Shown one piece after another: positions 25,705-48,303 of a stretch of DNA of 64,000 nucleotides (the first letter of the stretch is position 1; every line of letters begins with the position of its first letter). The notes under the pieces were generated by a model. That model did no database searches. It was given only the letters and a program-made list of their open reading frames with translations, and had not been told where the DNA came from. Made by a program: the position numbers and the translations under genes. Source of the DNA: Candidatus Omnitrophota bacterium (GTDB lineage Bacteria > Ratteibacteria > UBA8468 > B48-G9 > JAFGKM01); the NCBI GenBank assembly GCA_016928555.1, contig JAFGKM010000047.1, positions 462-64,461 on the forward strand. The letters run 5' to 3'.

Positions 25705-26790
25705 ATGAACAAGATATTCCTCCCGGTAACATTTGTTTTCCACCCAGAATGGTGGCATAAAAATTACGGGATAACTTTTGGAAGAGATTTTTTTTATAAT
25801 CCGGATTTGCGGGTGGAATCTGACTTTAAAATGCGCAATATATTGTATGAGCGCTTCGGCAGATTCGGCACGGATGAAAAACCGGTCAAACCAAGGCCCT
25901 GCATAGGAGCCACCTATCTGGCCGCTGGATATATAATCTCGGAAATGTTCGGTTGTAAAATTGAATATTATAAAGATGCGTCTCCGAGCGTCTTGCCTGA
26001 AATGTTATCTGACGAAAAAGCGGATAAAATAGAACCTGTTAACTTAAAAACAAATGCTGTTTTTAATCAGGTATCAGAACTCATGGATAAACTTAAGGAA
26101 AAATTCGGCTATGTTACCGGAGACATCAACTGGCAGGGAATTCTTAATGTAGCCTTAGATATCAGGGGGCAGGAAATTTTTGTCGACATGGCGGAAAAGC
26201 CCCAGAGAGCGAGGAGGATTTTTTCGTCTATAACTGAGACAATCATAGAATTTGTCAATTATATCCGCGGGGAAACAGGGACATCATCAATCTCGGTAAA
26301 TCGCGCAGTGGAATATGTCAATCCTGAAATTAATCTGCATTCCAATTGTTCAGTAGTGATGGTCTCACCAAAAACGTACAAAGATATTCTTTTAGAATAT
26401 GATATCAAACTATCCCGTGCGCTACAGCCATACGGAATTCATCATGACGGAAATAATCTGCATCTCCATGCGGATGGGTATGCTGAAGTTCCCAATGTTT
26501 GTTTTTTTGACGTAGGATGGGGCTCTGACATCTCCCTCTGCCGCAAAAAACTCTCAGGCGCCTTTTTAAATCTTCGCTATGACCCGGTAAAAATGCGCGC
26601 GGCTTCGTCAGAAGAATTGGAAGAAGATATCCTGAGAATGCTTAAAGAATCCGGCGACCCTGATAAGACCGGATTCTGCTGTATCAATATGGGCTGGGAT
26701 GTGCCTGATAAAAATATTGAAACTGTTTATTCAACCGTGGATAAATACCGGAAAAAGTTTTTATCCAAACCTGTCTTAAAAAACGGATAG
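25705..26790 (+). CDS. hypothetical protein, possibly uroporphyrinogen decarboxylase (UroD)-like fold
   Basis: 361 aa. Weak UroD-like segments (DVGWGSD...). Adjacent to a clear UroD-family paralog. Confidence 0.4.
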   Translation: MNKIFLPVTFVFHPEWWHKNYGITFGRDFFYNPDLRVESDFKMRNILYERFGRFGTDEKPVKPRPCIGATYLAAGYIISEMFGCKIEYYKDASPSVLPEMLSDEKADKIEPVNLKTNAVFNQVSELMDKLKEKFGYVTGDINWQGILNVALDIRGQEIFVDMAEKPQRARRIFSSITETIIEFVNYIRGETGTSSISVNRAVEYVNPEINLHSNCSVVMVSPKTYKDILLEYDIKLSRALQPYGIHHDGNNLHLHADGYAEVPNVCFFDVGWGSDISLCRKKLSGAFLNLRYDPVKMRAASSEELEEDILRMLKESGDPDKTGFCCINMGWDVPDKNIETVYSTVDKYRKKFLSKPVLKNG

Positions 26791-26905: not shown

Positions 26906-28147
26906 ATGAATTCAAAAGAGAGAGTTATACAAACGTTAGCTCATATAGAGCCGGACAGGGTTCCCTTCGGAGAATGGGGAATAGACCATGATATAGTTGA
27001 AAAGGTAATCGGGAGAGATACTTATTGGAGAAATAAAAAGAAAGTTATTTTAGCTTTATGGTCAGGCAAAAGGGATGAAGTAGTTGAGAGTTATAAAAAG
27101 GATTTGGTAGAATTAACGAAAAAACTTGATTACGATTTGGTACCGGTACATTTAGTGCCGCCCGCAGGACTTCCACCCCAAAAGATAGAACAGACAGATG
27201 AAAATACATGGAGAGATGGAAGGGGACAAACATGGAAATACTCACAAGGAAACGATGCTATACTGCTTGTAGACAGTCCGGTCAAGTCATTTAAATCTCG
27301 CGATGAATTAAGAGAATATTTTGAGTCAGAATTGGTAAAACGCTTTGGGTTCAAAATAAAAAACCGCACGGGAAACGGTTATGATATGAAATTAGATGAT
27401 GAATCCCGGCTGGATTTGGTGAGGCATGCAGTCAATCAATTAGGCAATGAAAAATTTATAATCGGACGCGGATTTGAGGAAGGCGTCGGGAATATTGATC
27501 CCCTCTACCTTTCCGAATTTGAAGTCGCCATGGTTTTTTTCGGCGGAAATTTGGAAAATTTTCTGCTTAACATTGCTATGAAACCGGAATTAGTCCAGGA
27601 GGCTTTTAATCTCTATACCGAGATTAATATTGCTGCAGCTAAAGCAATGATAGATGCAGGGGTTGATGCCGTCATGCCTGGAGGGGATTTTTCCGATTCT
27701 AACGGCCCTATGGTTTCCCCTGAAAGTATCAGAAGAATCTTTCTGCCGGGAATGAAGAAATTAAGCACATATTGCCATCAAAGAGGAGTAAGGGTAATGA
27801 GCCATAACTGCGGCAATAACTGGAAAATAATGGATATACTGATTGAAGCCGGTTATGAATCATGGCAATCTATTGCTTGCAAAACAGCAAGTATGGATCT
27901 CAAGAGATTAAAGGAGGAATATGGAGAAAAAATTTCCTTCTGGGGAGGAATAAATATTGAAACTCTTGTCGACGGAACTCCTGAAGAGAATGAGAATGAT
28001 GTGCTTTACGCCTTAAAATATGCCGCTCCCGGAGGAGGTTTTATCATGGGAACGAGCAACAGTGTTTGTTTCGGAAGCAAATACGAAAACTATATGTCTG
28101 CTTTGGAAACTCTTCATAAATACGGAGATTATCCAATTCAATTATAA
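26906..28147 (+). CDS. uroporphyrinogen decarboxylase (UroD) family protein, MtaA/MtbA-like methyltransferase type
   Basis: N-terminal ERVIQTLAHIEPDRVPFG. C-terminal MPGGDFSDSNGPMVSPE...FIMGTSNSV typical of UroD-like methylcobamide:CoM methyltransferase family. Confidence 0.6.
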   Translation: MNSKERVIQTLAHIEPDRVPFGEWGIDHDIVEKVIGRDTYWRNKKKVILALWSGKRDEVVESYKKDLVELTKKLDYDLVPVHLVPPAGLPPQKIEQTDENTWRDGRGQTWKYSQGNDAILLVDSPVKSFKSRDELREYFESELVKRFGFKIKNRTGNGYDMKLDDESRLDLVRHAVNQLGNEKFIIGRGFEEGVGNIDPLYLSEFEVAMVFFGGNLENFLLNIAMKPELVQEAFNLYTEINIAAAKAMIDAGVDAVMPGGDFSDSNGPMVSPESIRRIFLPGMKKLSTYCHQRGVRVMSHNCGNNWKIMDILIEAGYESWQSIACKTASMDLKRLKEEYGEKISFWGGINIETLVDGTPEENENDVLYALKYAAPGGGFIMGTSNSVCFGSKYENYMSALETLHKYGDYPIQL

Positions 28148-28349
28148 CTTAAAGAGGAAGATTAAAAAGATATTCCACTTCTGATATTGCTTTGCGTCAG
28201 AATTATAAATTCACCCGCAAATATGTCAATAATAAGAATAAGCAAGACGGCGTTTCATTTGCAAAAATCAAGCGTGATTGTAAAAATGACAAAACAAATT
28301 TCTAAGGAAGCTGTCCCTGGGATAAATTCATTGTTGGAATAACCGAGAT

Positions 28350-28712
28350 TTGGAGGCAAATAAAATGGCCAAGGCAGGACTGCGTACTGACCAAGACCTT
28401 CTGGTTAAGTATTTCGGGACAACCTATGACAATGTTTCAAAAATATTCCTGGCGGGAGCATTTGGTAACTTCATAGATGTTTCCAACGCTATGAAAATAG
28501 GCTTATATCCATCCATAAACAAAGATAAATTTATAAGGTTTGGGAATGGCGCGCTTGCAGGAGCAAGAGATATGCTTCTTTCAAGGAAAAGAAGAGCTGA
28601 TGCCGAGAAAATAGCAACTACCATACAGCACACAAAACCGAATGAAATGGAAGGCTCAGAATTCCAGTATATTGTAGCAGACAACATGTACTTTAGCAAA
28701 AGGGAAGAATGA
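28350..28712 (+). pseudogene. C-terminal fragment of an ASKHA-fold RACo-like (DUF4445) corrinoid-activation ATPase; gene remnant
   Basis: LAGAFGNFIDVSNAMKIGLYP matches the conserved C-terminal motif of DUF4445/RACo proteins, which are about 600 aa. Only 120 aa present, with no upstream body. Confidence 0.4.
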
Positions 28713-28786: not shown

Positions 28787-29118
28787 CTCCGGCGGTAGGA
28801 TTCGAACCTACAACCTTGCGGTTACAAGTACCCCCGAATTACTTCAGGGCTTGGACTATCTCTTCATCCTTTCCGAATTTTTTGGATTGGGATGTCGGGC
28901 GCTTCCCCGTTACCTGGAAAACAGGTACCGGGTACTCCATTTCTGGATAGTCTCTGCACCTTCCATTTTTTTGAAACAAATGGCTTGGCTCAGGATTGTC
29001 CGCCAGCTTTTCTTTTGTCTGATGGATTTCCCTGAATTCACCCGATTTTTCAACCACGATTTCTCGTGGAAGCTGCAACTGCTCACAGCCGCTTGCTCCA
29101 CCGTTGAGCTACGCCGGA
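28787..29118 (-). tRNA. tRNA-Asn(GUU) gene interrupted by a 260-nt group I intron between anticodon positions 35 and 36; exons 29118..29085 and 28824..28787
   Basis: 5' exon TCCGGCGTAGCTCAACGGTGGAGCAAGCGGCTGT and 3' exon TAACCGCAAGGTTGTAGGTTCGAATCCTACCGCCGGAG. Spliced product is a 72-nt cloverleaf with U1-A72, G73 and anticodon loop CUGUUAA as in E. coli tRNA-Asn. CCA is not encoded. Confidence 0.75.
28825..29084 (-). ncRNA. group I intron (IC3-like, tRNA-Leu(UAA)/tRNA-Ile intron family core), no ORF
   Basis: Intron RNA GAGCAGUUGCAGCUUCCACGAGAAAUCGUGG...CAGGGAAAUCCAUCAGACAAAAG...GACAAUCCUGAGCCAAGCCA...GGAAGGUGCAGAGACUAUCC...GAAGAGAUAGUCCAAGCCC...GUACUUG. It carries P7 halves GACUA and UAGUC, a P1 pairing GGCUGU with GCAGCU (U.G at 5' splice site), a P2 hairpin CCACGA-GAAA-UCGUGG, and a terminal G. 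Confidence 0.75.
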
Positions 29119-29169
29119 ATTATCAAATTGTCAATTGAACTTTAAGCGGCCTCTGAAAAAGTCGTTAAA

Positions 29170-29290
29170 CCCTTGTTTTGTCATTGCGAGCGCAACAAGC
29201 CGAAGCCACGAGCGAAGCTTGGCGGGAAGCAATCTAAGTAGATTGCCGCAGTTGCAAAAAACGCTCCTTCGCAATGACAAGTTGGGAAGT
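29170..29290. repeat. palindrome-flanked intergenic repeat family, copy A (between fmdB-like gene and tRNA-Asn)
   Basis: Terminal inverted repeats TTGTCATTGCGAG (29178..29190) and CTTCGCAATGACAA (29267..29280). Internal hairpin GCAATCTA-ag-TAGATTGC. Shares arms and flank with copies at 23140, 45082, 46674 and 48174. Confidence 0.6.
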
Positions 29291-29338
29291 TTTTCAGAAA
29301 CCCCATTAAGTATACCTGATTTGCACGTCAAAATCAAT

Positions 29339-31851: not shown

Positions 31852-33543
31852 ATGGACACTGGAGAGAACAAAAAAAACGATTTTATCAGGGAAATAATAC
31901 GAGAAGATCTGAAGACGGAGAAATACGGAAAGAAGGTGCATACCCGCTTTCCTCCGGAGCCCAACGGATATCTCCATATAGGCCATGCAAAATCCATATG
32001 CCTTAATTTCAGCATAGCCGAAGAATTCGGGGGCAGATGCAATCTGCGCTTTGACGACACCAATCCGGAAAAGGAAGAAGAAGAATACGTAAATTCCATT
32101 AAAGAAGACATTAAATGGCTCGGATTTGACTGGGAAGACAGGGAATATTACGCTTCCGATTATTTTGAACAACTGTATGATTTCGCGGTAGTACTGATAA
32201 AAAAAGGCAAAGCGTTTGTATGCGACCTTACGGCCGAAGAGATAAGCGAATACAGGGGAACTCTCACGGCTCCCGGCAAAGAGAGCCCTTACAGAAACCG
32301 CACGGCGGAGGAAAACCTCAGGCTGTTTGCGGAAATGCGCGAAGGTAAATACCCCAACGGAGCAAAGGTCCTCCGTGCAAAAATAGATATGGTTTCCCCC
32401 AACCTGAATATGCGCGACCCTGTAATTTACCGTATTCTTCACAGCAGCCACCACAGAACCGGCAATAAATGGTGCATATATCCCACTTACGACTGGGCGC
32501 ACGGACAGTCCGACTCCATAGAAGGGATTACGCATTCCATATGCACGCTGGAATTTGAAGTCCACAGGCCGCTTTACGACTGGTTTATTGAACAGCTTGG
32601 GATACACCACCCGAGGCAGATAGAATTTGCAAGGCTCAACCTTACATATACCGTAATGAGCAAGAGGCGCCTGCTTGAACTGGTGGAGGAGAAGCATGTA
32701 AGCGGATGGGACGACCCGCGGATGCCGACCATCTCGGGGATGCGGCGCAGAGGCTATCCGTCCGAAGCGATACGCAATTTCTGTTCAAGAATAGGCGTGG
32801 CAAAAACCGAAAGCACCGCAGACATGGCCCTGTTGGAACACTTCGTCCGCGACATCCTGAATAAAAGCGCCTCGAGGGTTATGGGAGTGATGAGGCCATT
32901 AAAAGTGGTCATAGACAATTATCCGGAAGGGAAAACAGAAGAGCTTTCTGCCGTAAACAACCCCGAGGACCCTTCGGCCGGAACAAGGAAAATACTGTTT
33001 TCCAAGGTCATTTATATAGAAAAAGACGATTTCATGGAGGAACCTCCGAAAAAGTTTTACAGGCTGGCGCCCGGAAGAGAGGTGCGCCTGCGTTATGCCT
33101 ATTTTATAAAATGCATTTCTGCGGCCAAGGATAGCGAGGGCAGAGTGACGGAACTGCACTGCACCTACGACCCCGCCACCAAGGGAGGGGATGCGCCTGA
33201 CGGAAGAAAGGTGAAAGCAACTCTGCACTGGGTATCCGCTACGCATTGCATAACGGCCGAAGCTCGTCTGTACAACTCCCTGTTTGTTAAAGAAAACCCT
33301 CTTGATATCCCCGAAGGAGGGAATTTCAAGGAAACGCTGAATCCCGAATCTCTGGAAACACTGCCGGAATGCAGGGTTGAACCTTCACTTACGGGGGCAA
33401 AATCCGGGACAGTATACCAGTTTGAACGGCTCGGCTACTTCTGCGTAGACGCTGACGCTTCGGATAAAAAACTGGTTTTTAACCGTACTGTGACGTTGAA
33501 AGACGACTGGGCCAAGATAAAAAACTCCGGAGGATTAAAATGA
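31852..33543 (+). CDS. glnS: glutaminyl-tRNA synthetase
   Basis: [12 protein letters not shown]...[19 protein letters not shown] (HIGH) and VMSKR (KMSKS). Track N-terminal extension overlaps the divergent hydrolase gene. Start could also be ATG 31837. Confidence 0.8.
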
Positions 33544-46673: not shown

Positions 46674-46800
46674 CTCTCCTCCTTTACCCCGAACCGAAGC
46701 ATTTTGTCGTTGCGAGCGCCTTGTGCGCGTCAATCTCAACCTTATTTTGAAATTGCTTCGTCGTTCCACTTCTGCAATAACAAGCAATTAGGGGTTTAGA
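46674..46800. repeat. repeat family copy C (immediately upstream of rubrerythrin-like gene 46194..46673)
   Basis: CTCCTTTACCCCGAACCGAAGCATTTTGTCGTTGCGAGCGCCTTGTGCGCGTCAATCTCAACCTTATTTTGAAATTGCTTCG...TCTGCAATAACAAGCAATTAGGGGTTTAGATTTT. About 90% identical to copy D. Confidence 0.6.
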
Positions 46801-48173: not shown

Positions 48174-48303
48174 AAAATCCTCCTTTACCACGAACTTTCG
48201 CATTTTGTTATTGCGAGCGCCTTGTGCGCGGCAATCTCAACCTTATTTTGAGATGGCTTCGTCTTCGCCTCGCAATGACAAACAATTAGGGGTTTTGATT
48301 TTG
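48174..48303. repeat. repeat family copy D (immediately upstream of rubredoxin gene 48003..48173)
   Basis: Arms TTGTTATTGCGAG (48204..48216) and CTCGCAATGACAA (48268..48280) form a perfect 13-bp inverted repeat with one G.U position. Internal hairpin ATCTCAA-ccttatt-TTGAGAT. Flank ACAATTAGGGGTTTTGATTTT. Confidence 0.6.

What the first reader, a model, noticed from the sequence alone, without database searches (positions are those of the whole stretch)
28787..29118. tRNA-Asn(GUU) split inside the anticodon by a 260-nt group I intron of the tRNA-Leu/tRNA-Ile IC3 type
Seen in sequence. Two tRNA halves lie on the minus strand 260 nt apart, at 29118..29085 and 28824..28787. Joined, they give a canonical 72-nt tRNA with acceptor stem UCCGGCG/CGCCGGA, D-arm GCUC-AACGGUG-GAGC, anticodon stem-loop AGCGG-CUGUUAA-CCGCA and T-arm GUAGG-UUCGAAU-CCUAC. 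G73 and the GUU anticodon are the Asn identity set.

The intervening RNA has group I hallmarks. The 5' exon U pairs with G in a P1 (GGCUGU with GCAGCU), and a P2 hairpin CCACGA-GAAA-UCGUGG follows. It contains CAAUCCUGAGCCAAGCC and GGAAGGUGCAGAGACUA, both nearly identical to the P4/P7 core of the cyanobacterial tRNA-Leu(UAA) and Azoarcus tRNA-Ile introns as I recall them. The 3' P7 half AGAUAGUC is present and the intron ends in G.

The bacterial tRNA hosts of group I introns I know of are Leu(UAA), fMet, Ile(CAU) and Arg(CCU). An Asn(GUU) host with insertion between anticodon nt 35 and 36 would be a new host and site in this organism group. The 3' half alone also explains the spurious ORFs in the track over this region.
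Basis: partly seen in the sequence, partly recalled or inferred. Interest (0 to 1): 0.85.

Follow-up and report, generated by a model that had tools for sequence, protein, structure and literature searches.

The report
Group I intron splitting tRNA-Asn
A real group I (self-splicing type) intron interrupts the anticodon of an asparagine tRNA gene in an uncultured Omnitrophica bacterium, but this intron class was already published and shown to splice in vitro, so this is one more member.

Summary
On the minus strand, 29118..29085 and 28824..28787 join into a 72-nt tRNA-Asn(GUU). The 260 nt between them score 96.5 bits on Rfam Intron_gpI (cut-off 50). A syntenic locus from a related bacterium carries the same tRNA-Asn without the intron, 69/72 identical, and it matches the predicted junction GGCTGT|TAACCGC.

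The novelty claim fails. tRNA-Asn(GUU) introns at 35/36 were catalogued as "Asn.4Ug" (Williams 2020). Nakagawa et al. (2026) described them and showed in vitro self-splicing of a Patescibacteria tRNA-Asn intron at this site; their Table S5 lists close relatives of this intron.

One pattern scan of GTDB species genomes hit its 120-locus limit. 109 loci resolved, all as tRNA-Asn(GUU) split at 35/36, under labels from more than 15 phyla including Omnitrophota. 35 carry an HNH-like endonuclease ORF in the P1 loop.

The "IC3 type" label is only half right. The P4/P6/J6-7 strings are verbatim those of cyanobacterial tRNA-Leu IC3 introns. However, the intron has P7.1 and P7.2 joined by G-U-A, a subgroup IA hallmark, and its published relatives are labelled IA1.

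Verdict: a genuine, structurally intact, endonuclease-free member of a known family, in an Omnitrophica genome. Interest is low.

The parts
29085..29118 (-). tRNA-Asn(GUU) 5' exon, nt 1-35, ending in anticodon G34 U35. The last six nt, GGCUGU (29090..29085), form the 5' strand of P1.
   Evidence: ARAGORN tRNA-Asn i(35,260); aligns base for base with the intron-less ortholog in L125.
28825..29084 (-). Group I intron, 260 nt, with no ORF. Its last nt (28825) is the terminal guanosine, omega-G.
   Evidence: RF00028 96.5 bits, E 1.2e-23; all consensus helices form in this copy.
28787..28824 (-). tRNA-Asn 3' exon, U36 to discriminator G73. CCA is not encoded.
29071..29076 (-). Internal guide sequence GCAGCU, the 3' strand of P1. 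Its first G pairs with U35 as the U·G wobble at the 5' splice site.
   Evidence: columns 7-10/37-40 are invariant in 52/52 sequences, including the U·G. for coordinates.
29054..29069 (-). P2 hairpin CCACGA-GAAA-UCGUGG.
   Evidence: helix 3 has 6 of 7 pairs with compensatory changes.
29039..29046 (-). P3 5' strand (UCGGGUG). It pairs with 28902..28895.
   Evidence: helix 4, 99.2% of cells paired, 4 pairs with changes on both sides.
28990..29038 (-). J3/4, P4 (UCAGGG/UCCUGA) and the P5 hairpin (29026..28999).
   Evidence: helices 5 and 6, 100% paired.
28958..28989 (-). P6/P6a hairpin. With the flanking P4 3' strand it contains CAAUCCUGAGCCAAGCC, shared verbatim with tRNA-Leu IC3 introns.
   Evidence: helices 7 and 8, 6/6 P6a pairs compensatory. 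for the IC3 comparison.
28948..28957 (-). J6/7 and the P7 5' strand (GCAGA-GACUA).
   Evidence: helix 9 (GACUA/UAGUC) is invariant in 52/52.
28936..28947 (-). P7.1 hairpin UCCA-GAAA-UGGA.
   Evidence: a 4-bp stem that changes compensatorily across 29 members (UCCA/UGGA, GAGC/GCUC, UCCC/GGGA, UCUC/GAGA, UUCC/GGAA).
28906..28935 (-). G-U-A linker (28935..28933) followed by the P7.2 hairpin (CCCG-G-UACCUG-UUUUC-CAGGUA-A-CGGG).
   Evidence: the hairpin is kept in all 29 two-hairpin (variant A) members despite different sequences. P7.1-GUA-P7.2 is cited as the subgroup IA2 criterion.
28895..28902 (-). P3 3' strand (CGCCCGA within GCGCCCGA).
   Evidence: helix 4.
28865..28894 (-). P8 hairpin (CAUCC...GGAUG).
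   Evidence: helix 10, 4 of 5 pairs compensatory.
28854..28864 (-). J8/7 and the P7 3' strand (AAGAGA-UAGUC).
   Evidence: invariant.
28825..28853 (-). J7/9 with the P9.0 5' strand AAG (28851..28849), the P9 hairpin (28849..28832), and the tail GUACUUG. The tail's CUU (28829..28827) pairs with AAG, and omega-G (28825) follows.
   Evidence: helices 11 (P9.0, all 3 pairs covary) and 12 (P9, 6/6 covary).

Best explanation
The locus is a functional tRNA-Asn(GUU) gene of an uncultured Omnitrophica bacterium, interrupted between U35 and U36 by a 260-nt group I intron that carries no endonuclease gene.

The inferred mechanism is standard self-splicing. The pre-tRNA folds so that the anticodon-loop end of the 5' exon (GGCUGU) pairs with the intron's guide sequence GCAGCU. 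This puts the U35·G wobble at the 5' splice site. An external guanosine bound in P7 attacks after U35. The intron's last G then takes the guanosine site, positioned by the P9.0 pairing AAG/CUU. The freed 3' OH of U35 attacks after that G and ligates U35 to U36, which restores the anticodon GUU.

The intron belongs to the already described family of tRNA-Asn 35/36 introns ("Asn.4Ug"). In many genomes that family carries an HNH-like homing endonuclease gene in the P1 loop. This copy is most simply a descendant of such a mobile intron that has lost the endonuclease gene.

Shown here: the sequence anatomy, the family membership, the conserved structure and the exact junction. Inferred: actual splicing of this copy and how it was acquired.
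For: 1. RF00028 scores 96.5 bits, E 1.2e-23, over the full model length.
2. ARAGORN calls tRNA-Asn(gtt) on the joined exons, and i(35,260) on the genomic sequence.
3. An intron-less ortholog exists. L125 and L126 show the same gene order (GlnRS, glycosyltransferase-9, hydrolase, MscS, FmdB zinc ribbon, tRNA-Asn). Their uninterrupted tRNA-Asn is 69/72 identical and reads GGCTGT-TAACCGC across the predicted junction.
4. The family is large. The pattern scan returned 120 or more loci. 109 were resolvable and all 109 are tRNA-Asn(gtt) split after U35.
5. The structure is conserved. On 52 aligned members, 61 pairs in P1-P9, P9.0 and the exon anticodon stem are 97.1% paired, against 31-42% when partners are slid. 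The covariation score is 0.522 against at most 0.096, and 0 of 500 shuffles reach it. In the window copy every consensus pair is canonical except the exonic A27/A43 pair. It also carries all 72 invariant columns.
6. An Omnitrophota MAG (L038) has exons 71/72 identical and an intron core 80.6% identical.
7. Another tRNA-Asn intron at the same 35/36 site, from a Patescibacteria genome (I did not compare its sequence with this one), self-spliced precisely in vitro. Mutating its terminal G to C blocked exon ligation (PMC13011429).
8. 35 of the 109 members carry an ORF with the CxxC...HH...CANCHREVH motif in the P1 loop. It matches Pfam HNH weakly at 20.2 bits against a gathering cut-off of 21.4.
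Against: There is no expression or splicing data for this copy. Only 64 kb of the genome is visible, so I cannot tell whether this is the sole tRNA-Asn gene. P10 is at most 3 bp (AAC/GUU), and covariation cannot test it because the 3' exon is nearly invariant. No convincing promoter sits directly upstream and no intrinsic terminator was found, so the transcription unit is unknown. The gene may be co-transcribed with the FmdB-like gene upstream. The HNH assignment of the relatives' ORF falls just under Pfam's threshold.
Confidence: 0.88

Rival explanations
1. The intron is a true IC3 intron. On this view it is a derivative of the tRNA-Leu/tRNA-Ile type that moved into tRNA-Asn.
For: CAATCCTGAGCCAAGCC and GGAAGGTGCAGAGACT are verbatim identical to cyanobacterial tRNA-Leu(UAA) introns labelled IC3. 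It has a P2 and a short P5 like IC3 introns. Some IC3-labelled tRNA-Arg(CCU) introns also carry an insertion after P7, so an insertion alone does not exclude IC3.
Against: The P7.1-GUA-P7.2 module is present and covaries, and the literature uses it to assign introns to subgroup IA. The Asn 35/36 relatives that I compared by eye with this intron are labelled IA1 in Table S5 of PMC13011429. That paper classes 25 of 28 introns at 35/36 as IA.
Confidence: 0.12
2. This is a decayed copy. The intron no longer splices, the locus is a tRNA pseudogene, and a functional tRNA-Asn lies elsewhere in the genome.
For: The endonuclease gene is absent (the P1 loop is 8 nt). The A27/A43 mismatch weakens the anticodon stem. 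The rest of the genome is not visible.
Against: All 72 family-invariant positions and all intron helices are intact. The exons are 69/72 and 71/72 identical to those of related bacteria. About two thirds of the family's members also lack the ORF. L038 has the same nucleotides at positions 27 and 43, and the intron-less L125 gene has a G/A mismatch there, so that pair is unpaired in this lineage regardless.
Confidence: 0.07
3. The boundaries are shifted by two nucleotides and the host is tRNA-Thr(UGU) with an intron at 33/34. PMC13011429 documents this miscall for the class by ARAGORN and tFind.
For: ARAGORN made exactly this call for two relatives in my set, L015 and L059. The paper reports the same ambiguity.
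Against: With that shift the intron would end in U instead of G (sequence). ARAGORN calls this copy Asn i(35,260). The intron-less ortholog is a tRNA-Asn(GTT) that is 69/72 identical.
Confidence: 0.01

Closest known systems
tRNA-Asn(GUU) position-35/36 group I introns: class "Asn.4Ug" (Williams 2020, bioRxiv 10.1101/2020.01.27.920355) and Nakagawa et al. 2026, mSystems (PMC13011429)
   Same: Same host tRNA, same insertion site, U-1 and a terminal G. P1-P2-P3-P4 is near-identical (tgcagcttccac.ggaaac.gtggttgaaaaatcgggtgaattcaggga), as are P3', J8/7 and P7'. The HNH-type endonuclease ORF of some members sits in the same P1 loop.
   Different: The host phylum differs. That paper's complete-genome survey lists 35/36 introns in Patescibacteria, Cyanobacteriota, Nitrospirota, Bacillota_A, Bipolaricaulota and Pseudomonadota, but not Omnitrophota. 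This copy belongs to the two-hairpin (P7.1/P7.2) sub-variant. The Nitrospirota and Bipolaricaulota examples have a single hairpin with a CCAAUAA loop. This copy has no endonuclease ORF.
[quoted passage not shown]
   Same: It is also a tRNA anticodon-loop intron. The P4 3' strand with the start of P6 (CAAUCCUGAGCCAAGCC), and the end of P6 with J6/7 and P7 (GGAAGGUGCAGAGACU), are identical strings. Both have a P2 with a GAAA-type loop and are of similar size.
   Different: The host tRNA and site differ. In tRNA-Leu introns P7 is followed directly by P3', whereas here P7.1-GUA-P7.2 intervenes. Subgroup labels differ, IC3 against IA1 for the Asn family.
Azoarcus tRNA-Ile(CAU) and Agrobacterium tRNA-Arg(CCU) IC3 introns (position 36/37)
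   Same: They are small, ORF-less self-splicing introns in bacterial tRNA anticodon loops, and P1 is built from the anticodon stem-loop (my own knowledge).
   Different: The site is 36/37 and the hosts differ. They have no P7.1/P7.2. I did not align them here.
Subgroup IA2 phage introns (for example the Pf-WMP3 DNA polymerase intron, and T4 td from my own knowledge)
   Same: P7.1 and P7.2 are linked by G-U-A, and they carry HNH-family homing endonucleases.
   Different: Those sit in protein-coding genes, often lack P2, and carry the ORF in P6a. In this family the ORF, when present, is in the P1 loop.

Membership tests
Group I intron (Rfam RF00028) | Covariance-model score at or above the gathering threshold | tested here: met
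   96.5 bits against 50, E 1.2e-23, model positions 1-253 of 253.
Group I intron (Rfam RF00028) | [quoted passage not shown] | tested here: met
   U35 pairs with the first G of GCAGCU. Columns 10/37 are U·G in 52/52 members.
Group I intron (Rfam RF00028) | A terminal guanosine (omega-G) before the 3' splice site | tested here: met
   Base 28825 is G. The column is invariant in the alignment.
Group I intron (Rfam RF00028) | A conserved P3-P9 core with the P3/P7 pseudoknot | tested here: met
   P3, P4, P5, P6, P8, P9 and P9.0 show compensatory changes, and P7 is invariant. Overall 97.1% of cells are paired, against at most 42% in the slid controls.
Group I intron (Rfam RF00028) | Guanosine-dependent self-splicing | not testable with these tools
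   Shown in vitro only for a Patescibacteria tRNA-Asn intron at the same site (PMC13011429).
tRNA-Asn(GUU) 35/36 intron class (Asn.4Ug) | The host is tRNA-Asn with anticodon GUU | tested here: met
   ARAGORN on the joined exons. 69/72 identity to an intron-less syntenic tRNA-Asn. G73 is present.
tRNA-Asn(GUU) 35/36 intron class (Asn.4Ug) | Insertion between anticodon nucleotides 35 and 36 | tested here: met
   i(35,260). The junction matches the intron-less ortholog exactly.
tRNA-Asn(GUU) 35/36 intron class (Asn.4Ug) | Intron sequence homologous to other members | tested here: met
   It aligns with 51 members over its full length and shares 72 invariant columns. The core is 80.6% identical to L038. 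The P1-P4 segment is the same as in the Table S5 entries.
Subgroup IC3 | P7 followed directly by P3', with no P7.1/P7.2 module, as in tRNA-Leu and Azoarcus introns | tested here: not met
   45 nt (28947..28903) lie between P7 and P3'. They form two hairpins joined by GUA.
Subgroup IC3 | IC3-type core sequence in P4/P6/J6-7 | tested here: met
   Verbatim 17-nt and 16-nt matches to IC3-labelled tRNA-Leu introns.
Subgroup IC3 | Best score from the subgroup-specific covariance models | not tested
   The models are not available here. Published relatives are labelled IA1.
Subgroup IA | P7.1 and P7.2 helices linked by G-U-A | tested here: met
   UCCA-GAAA-UGGA, then GUA, then the P7.2 hairpin. The module is conserved with compensatory changes in 29 members. 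Criterion as stated in PMC3428280.
Mobile (homing) group I intron | An intron-encoded homing endonuclease | tested here: not met
   The P1 loop is 8 nt and the 260-nt intron holds no ORF on its own strand. The only ORF over it is antisense (28851..29138, +) and has no Pfam match. 35 of 109 relatives do carry an HNH-like ORF.

The most novel reading that the evidence does not exclude
The most novel reading still open has three parts.

1. This would be the first explicitly described tRNA-Asn 35/36 intron in Omnitrophota. Among related bacteria from the same kind of locus, the intron is present in the window and in L038 but absent in L125 and L126. That pattern implies gain or loss within the lineage.

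2. The family as a whole is a structural mosaic. It combines IC3-like P4-P6 and J6/7 sequence with an IA-type P7.1-GUA-P7.2 module.

3. Copies with an HNH-like endonuclease ORF occur under many taxon labels outside Patescibacteria. This goes beyond the published complete-genome survey, which found such copies only in Patescibacteria and judged horizontal transfer infrequent.
Probability: 0.5. Interest if true: 0.35.

Novelty: new member of a known kind. Interest (0 to 1): 0.2.

Why it matters
**For annotation.** Default tRNA finders and Rfam's tRNA model miss this gene. A genome like this would be scored as lacking tRNA-Asn and judged less complete than it is. PMC13011429 makes the same point.

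**For intron biology.** The window adds one data point to a family that my single scan shows to be much wider than the published complete-genome survey suggests. It returned 120 or more species-level genomes under labels from more than 15 phyla, and about a third of the resolvable copies carry an HNH-like endonuclease ORF. The intron-less ortholog next door (L125) gives a clean "empty site" for studying gain or loss. None of this changes what is known about how such introns work.

Tried and rejected
- **Default detectors.** Default ARAGORN and the Rfam tRNA model find no tRNA at the locus. ARAGORN finds it only when introns are allowed.
- **Source contig.** Exact-protein look-ups for the MscS-like protein, the MtaA-like protein and the 100%-identical GlnRS entry P0001 found nothing. 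The FmdB-like protein gave only a 3.5-kb Logan contig that ends inside the intron. The organism label therefore rests on the NCBI name of the 100%-identical GlnRS, "Candidatus Omnitrophica bacterium".
- **Other syntenic loci.** L122-L124 and L128 (GlnRS 80-81% identical) lack the FmdB/tRNA-Asn neighbourhood, so they say nothing about the intron.
- **Alternative boundary.** The tRNA-Thr(UGU) 33/34 reading was considered and rejected (see rivals).
- **Genomic island test.** No second copy of the tRNA 3' end exists in the window, so there is no sign of an island integrated at this tRNA.
- **Promoter and terminator scan.** No terminator was found. The only promoter-like site near the gene is at 29337..29309, upstream of a palindromic repeat element, so it is not informative.
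- **Viral contigs.** The family pattern gave 0 hits in IMG/VR, so there is no sign of a phage carrier at that stringency.
- **P10.** Only AAC/GUU (3 bp) can be drawn, and the 3' exon is too invariant to test it by covariation.
- **Subgroup models.** I did not build my own covariance models to decide IA against IC3. The only IA1-labelled sequences at hand are the Asn introns themselves, so the test would be circular.

Full report
**1. What is in the sequence**

Read on the minus strand, 29118..29085 is UCCGGCGUAGCUCAACGGUGGAGCAAGCGGCUGU. The stretch 28824..28787 is UAACCGCAAGGUUGUAGGUUCGAAUCCUACCGCCGGAG. Exactly 260 nt lie between them, and the last is G.

- ARAGORN calls the joined 72-mer tRNA-Asn(gtt). 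With introns allowed, it calls the genomic sequence tRNA-Asn i(35,260).
- In default mode neither ARAGORN nor the Rfam tRNA model sees the gene.
- Rfam Intron_gpI (RF00028) matches 29094..28832 on the minus strand over the whole model. It scores 96.5 bits against a gathering score of 50, E = 1.2e-23.

**2. Independent proof of the exon junction**

The GlnRS gene 2.7 kb away is 100% identical to an NCBI protein labelled "MAG: Candidatus Omnitrophica bacterium" on a 65.6-kb contig. A GlnRS that is 79% identical led to two JGI metagenome contigs, L125 and L126.

- They share the window's gene order: GlnRS, glycosyltransferase-9, alpha/beta hydrolase, MscS, FmdB-type zinc ribbon, then tRNA-Asn.
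- There the tRNA-Asn is uninterrupted.
- It is 69/72 identical to the window's in-silico spliced tRNA.
- It reads ...GGCTGT TAACCGC... exactly across the predicted junction.

This rules out the two-base-shifted tRNA-Thr(UGU) reading that is a known miscall for this class. That reading would also leave the intron ending in U.

**3. It is a member of a large, already described family**

A full-text search found two sources.

- Williams 2020 (bioRxiv 10.1101/2020.01.27.920355) raised the number of intron-interrupted bacterial tRNA classes from four to 21. PMC13011429 cites its class "Asn.4Ug".
- Nakagawa et al. [quoted passage not shown] They show precise in vitro self-splicing and a splicing-dead mutant of the terminal G. 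They survey 4,934 complete genomes.

Their Table S5 lists Asn 35/36 introns from Nitrospirota, Bipolaricaulota and Patescibacteria. In these, P1-P2-P3-P4 and P3'-P8-P7'-P9 are visibly the same as here.

I searched one representative genome per GTDB species with TGCAGN{15,30}GAAANANNNNGTGAATTCNGGGAA.

- 109 loci could be resolved, and all 109 give tRNA-Asn(gtt) split after U35. The other 11 include at least nine cut by a locus end.
- Record titles span more than 15 phylum-level labels. Nitrospirota, Patescibacteria, Desulfobacterota/Deltaproteobacteria, Acidobacteriota/Aminicenantes, Elusimicrobia, Firmicutes, Binatia, Planctomycetes and Bacteroidota are all represented.
- Two are Omnitrophota MAGs, L038 and L103.
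- L038 is the nearest relative, with exons 71/72 identical and an intron core 80.6% identical.

**4. Structure**

A 52-sequence alignment (A1) with RNAalifold recovers P1, P2, P3, P4, P5, P6/P6a, P8, P9 and the exon anticodon stem. I added P7 and P9.0 by hand and counted pairs.

| Measure | Structure as given | Controls |
|---|---|---|
| Pairs counted | 61 | |
| Cells forming a standard pair | 97.1% | 31-42% (partners slid by 1-3 columns) |
| Pairs with changes on both sides | 38 | |
| Covariation score | 0.522 | at most 0.096 (slid) |
| Shuffles reaching the observed values | | 0 of 500 |

- P7 (GACUA/UAGUC) and the core of P1, including the U·G wobble, are invariant.
- P9.0 (AAG/CUU just before the terminal G) covaries.
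- The window copy has a canonical pair at every consensus position except the exonic A27/A43.
- It carries all 72 invariant columns.

It therefore looks like an intact ribozyme.

**5. Subgroup: IC3 or IA?**

CAATCCTGAGCCAAGCC and GGAAGGTGCAGAGACT are verbatim in cyanobacterial tRNA-Leu(UAA) introns labelled IC3.

The architecture differs between P7 and P3'. In those IC3 introns P7 runs straight into P3'. Here the two are separated by 45 nt.

- First comes a 4-bp hairpin, UCCA-GAAA-UGGA.
- Then comes the trinucleotide GUA.
- Then comes a longer hairpin.

The same module is kept in 28 other members with fully compensatory stem changes (GAGC/GCUC, UCCC/GGGA, UCUC/GAGA and others). PMC3428280 states that P7.1 and P7.2 linked by G-U-A assign an intron to subgroup IA2. 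PMC13011429 labels the Asn 35/36 relatives IA1 by covariance models, and classes 25 of 28 introns at 35/36 as IA.

I could not run those subgroup models. On the evidence available, "IC3 type" is not supported. "IA-type architecture with an IC3-like P4-P6 sequence" is the fair description.

A second sub-variant of the family, mainly in Nitrospirota and Binatia, replaces the two hairpins with a single hairpin that has a conserved CCAAUAA loop. It also has GAGCGAAGC instead of GAGCCAAGC in P6.

**6. Mobility**

Intron lengths in the family are bimodal. 74 introns are 218-394 nt and 35 are 462-655 nt.

- The long introns carry an ORF of about 110-130 aa in the P1 loop, ending just before the guide sequence.
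- The ORF has the motif CxxCGY...EFHH...CANCHREVH.
- Pfam HNH matches at 17.5-20.2 bits, just below its 21.4 cut-off.
- PMC13011429 reports HNH endonucleases in four Patescibacteria Asn introns.
- In my set the ORF-bearing copies carry many non-Patescibacteria labels.

The window's P1 loop is 8 nt, so this copy has no endonuclease. Together with the empty site in L125, the simplest history is homing into an Omnitrophota tRNA-Asn followed by loss of the endonuclease gene. Vertical inheritance with loss of the intron in the L125 lineage is not excluded. No hit was found in viral contigs.

**7. Mechanism**

Inferred from the anatomy and from the published experiment on another tRNA-Asn 35/36 intron:

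- P1 forms between GGCUGU (nt 30-35 of the tRNA) and GCAGCU.
- An external guanosine attacks after U35.
- The terminal G, positioned by P9.0, enters the P7 site.
- U35 is ligated to U36, which restores anticodon GUU. G73 is also present.

Splicing of this particular copy, its transcription unit and its uniqueness in the genome remain untested.

**8. Verdict**

The finding is real and correctly delimited. It is one more member, in an Omnitrophica genome, of a tRNA-Asn intron class that is already published and experimentally validated. The IC3 label should be replaced by IA-like, and the novelty claim dropped. Interest is low. Its practical value is as a reminder that such tRNA genes are missed by default annotation.

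Noticed in passing
Loci L006, L009, L010, L014, L016, L017, L020, L021, L025, L027, L028, L037, L039, L041, L042 and others (35 of the 109 resolved family members): Relatives of this intron carry an ORF of about 110-130 aa with an HNH-like motif (...CANCHREVH) in the P1 loop. They occur under many labels, including Nitrospirota, Deltaproteobacteria, Acidobacteriota, Bacteroidota, Elusimicrobia, Gammaproteobacteria, Chloroflexota and Firmicutes. The published complete-genome survey found endonuclease-bearing 35/36 introns only in Patescibacteria.
   Followed up: partly
L125 2287-2305 (also L126), about 130 nt downstream of the intron-less tRNA-Asn at 2418-2490: There is a second copy of the tRNA 3' end (gaatcctaccgccggagct). 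It looks like the direct repeat left by an element that integrated into, or excised from, the tRNA-Asn gene. The window has no such duplicate.
   Followed up: partly
window 29178-29280; also 48205-48281 and 46704-46718: A palindromic element of about 100 nt lies between the FmdB-like gene and the tRNA. It has terminal inverted repeats TTGTCATTGCGAGCG and folds at -41 kcal/mol (z = -2.7). It recurs elsewhere in the window and is absent from the short spacer of the syntenic L125 locus. It looks like a small MITE- or REP-like repeat.
   Followed up: partly
window 28350-28712 (+), with short ORFs at 28020-28342: A 120-aa ORF matches only the C-terminal part (profile positions 141-246 of 261) of the RACo ASKHA domain, the reductive activator of corrinoid proteins. 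It lies next to two MtaA/CmuA-like methyltransferase genes (25705-26790 and 26906-28147). It is probably a truncated or frameshifted RACo gene that ends 75 nt from the tRNA.
   Followed up: no
Alignment A1, region between P7 and P3' and in P6 (for example L034, L036, L029, L069, L114): A second structural sub-variant of the Asn intron family has one hairpin with a conserved CCAAUAA loop instead of P7.1/P7.2. It also has GAGCGAAGC...GAA..AGUAGGC..AACGUGCAGAGA in P6. These changes occur together, which suggests a different tertiary contact.
   Followed up: partly
L031 (contig CAMBFS010000088.1, labelled Klebsiella pneumoniae MAG) compared with L106 (Deltaproteobacteria MAG): The two introns are almost identical in the alignment. 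The Klebsiella label on L031 is probably a binning or labelling error.
   Followed up: no
window 31867-33543 (+), GlnRS: Apart from the identical Omnitrophica entry, many of the best GlnRS hits (74-77% identity) carry Actinobacteria or Humimicrobiaceae labels. This points to mislabelled MAGs or to horizontal transfer of GlnRS.
   Followed up: no
window 28851-29138 (+): A 95-aa ORF runs antisense across the intron and 5' exon.
   Followed up: yes
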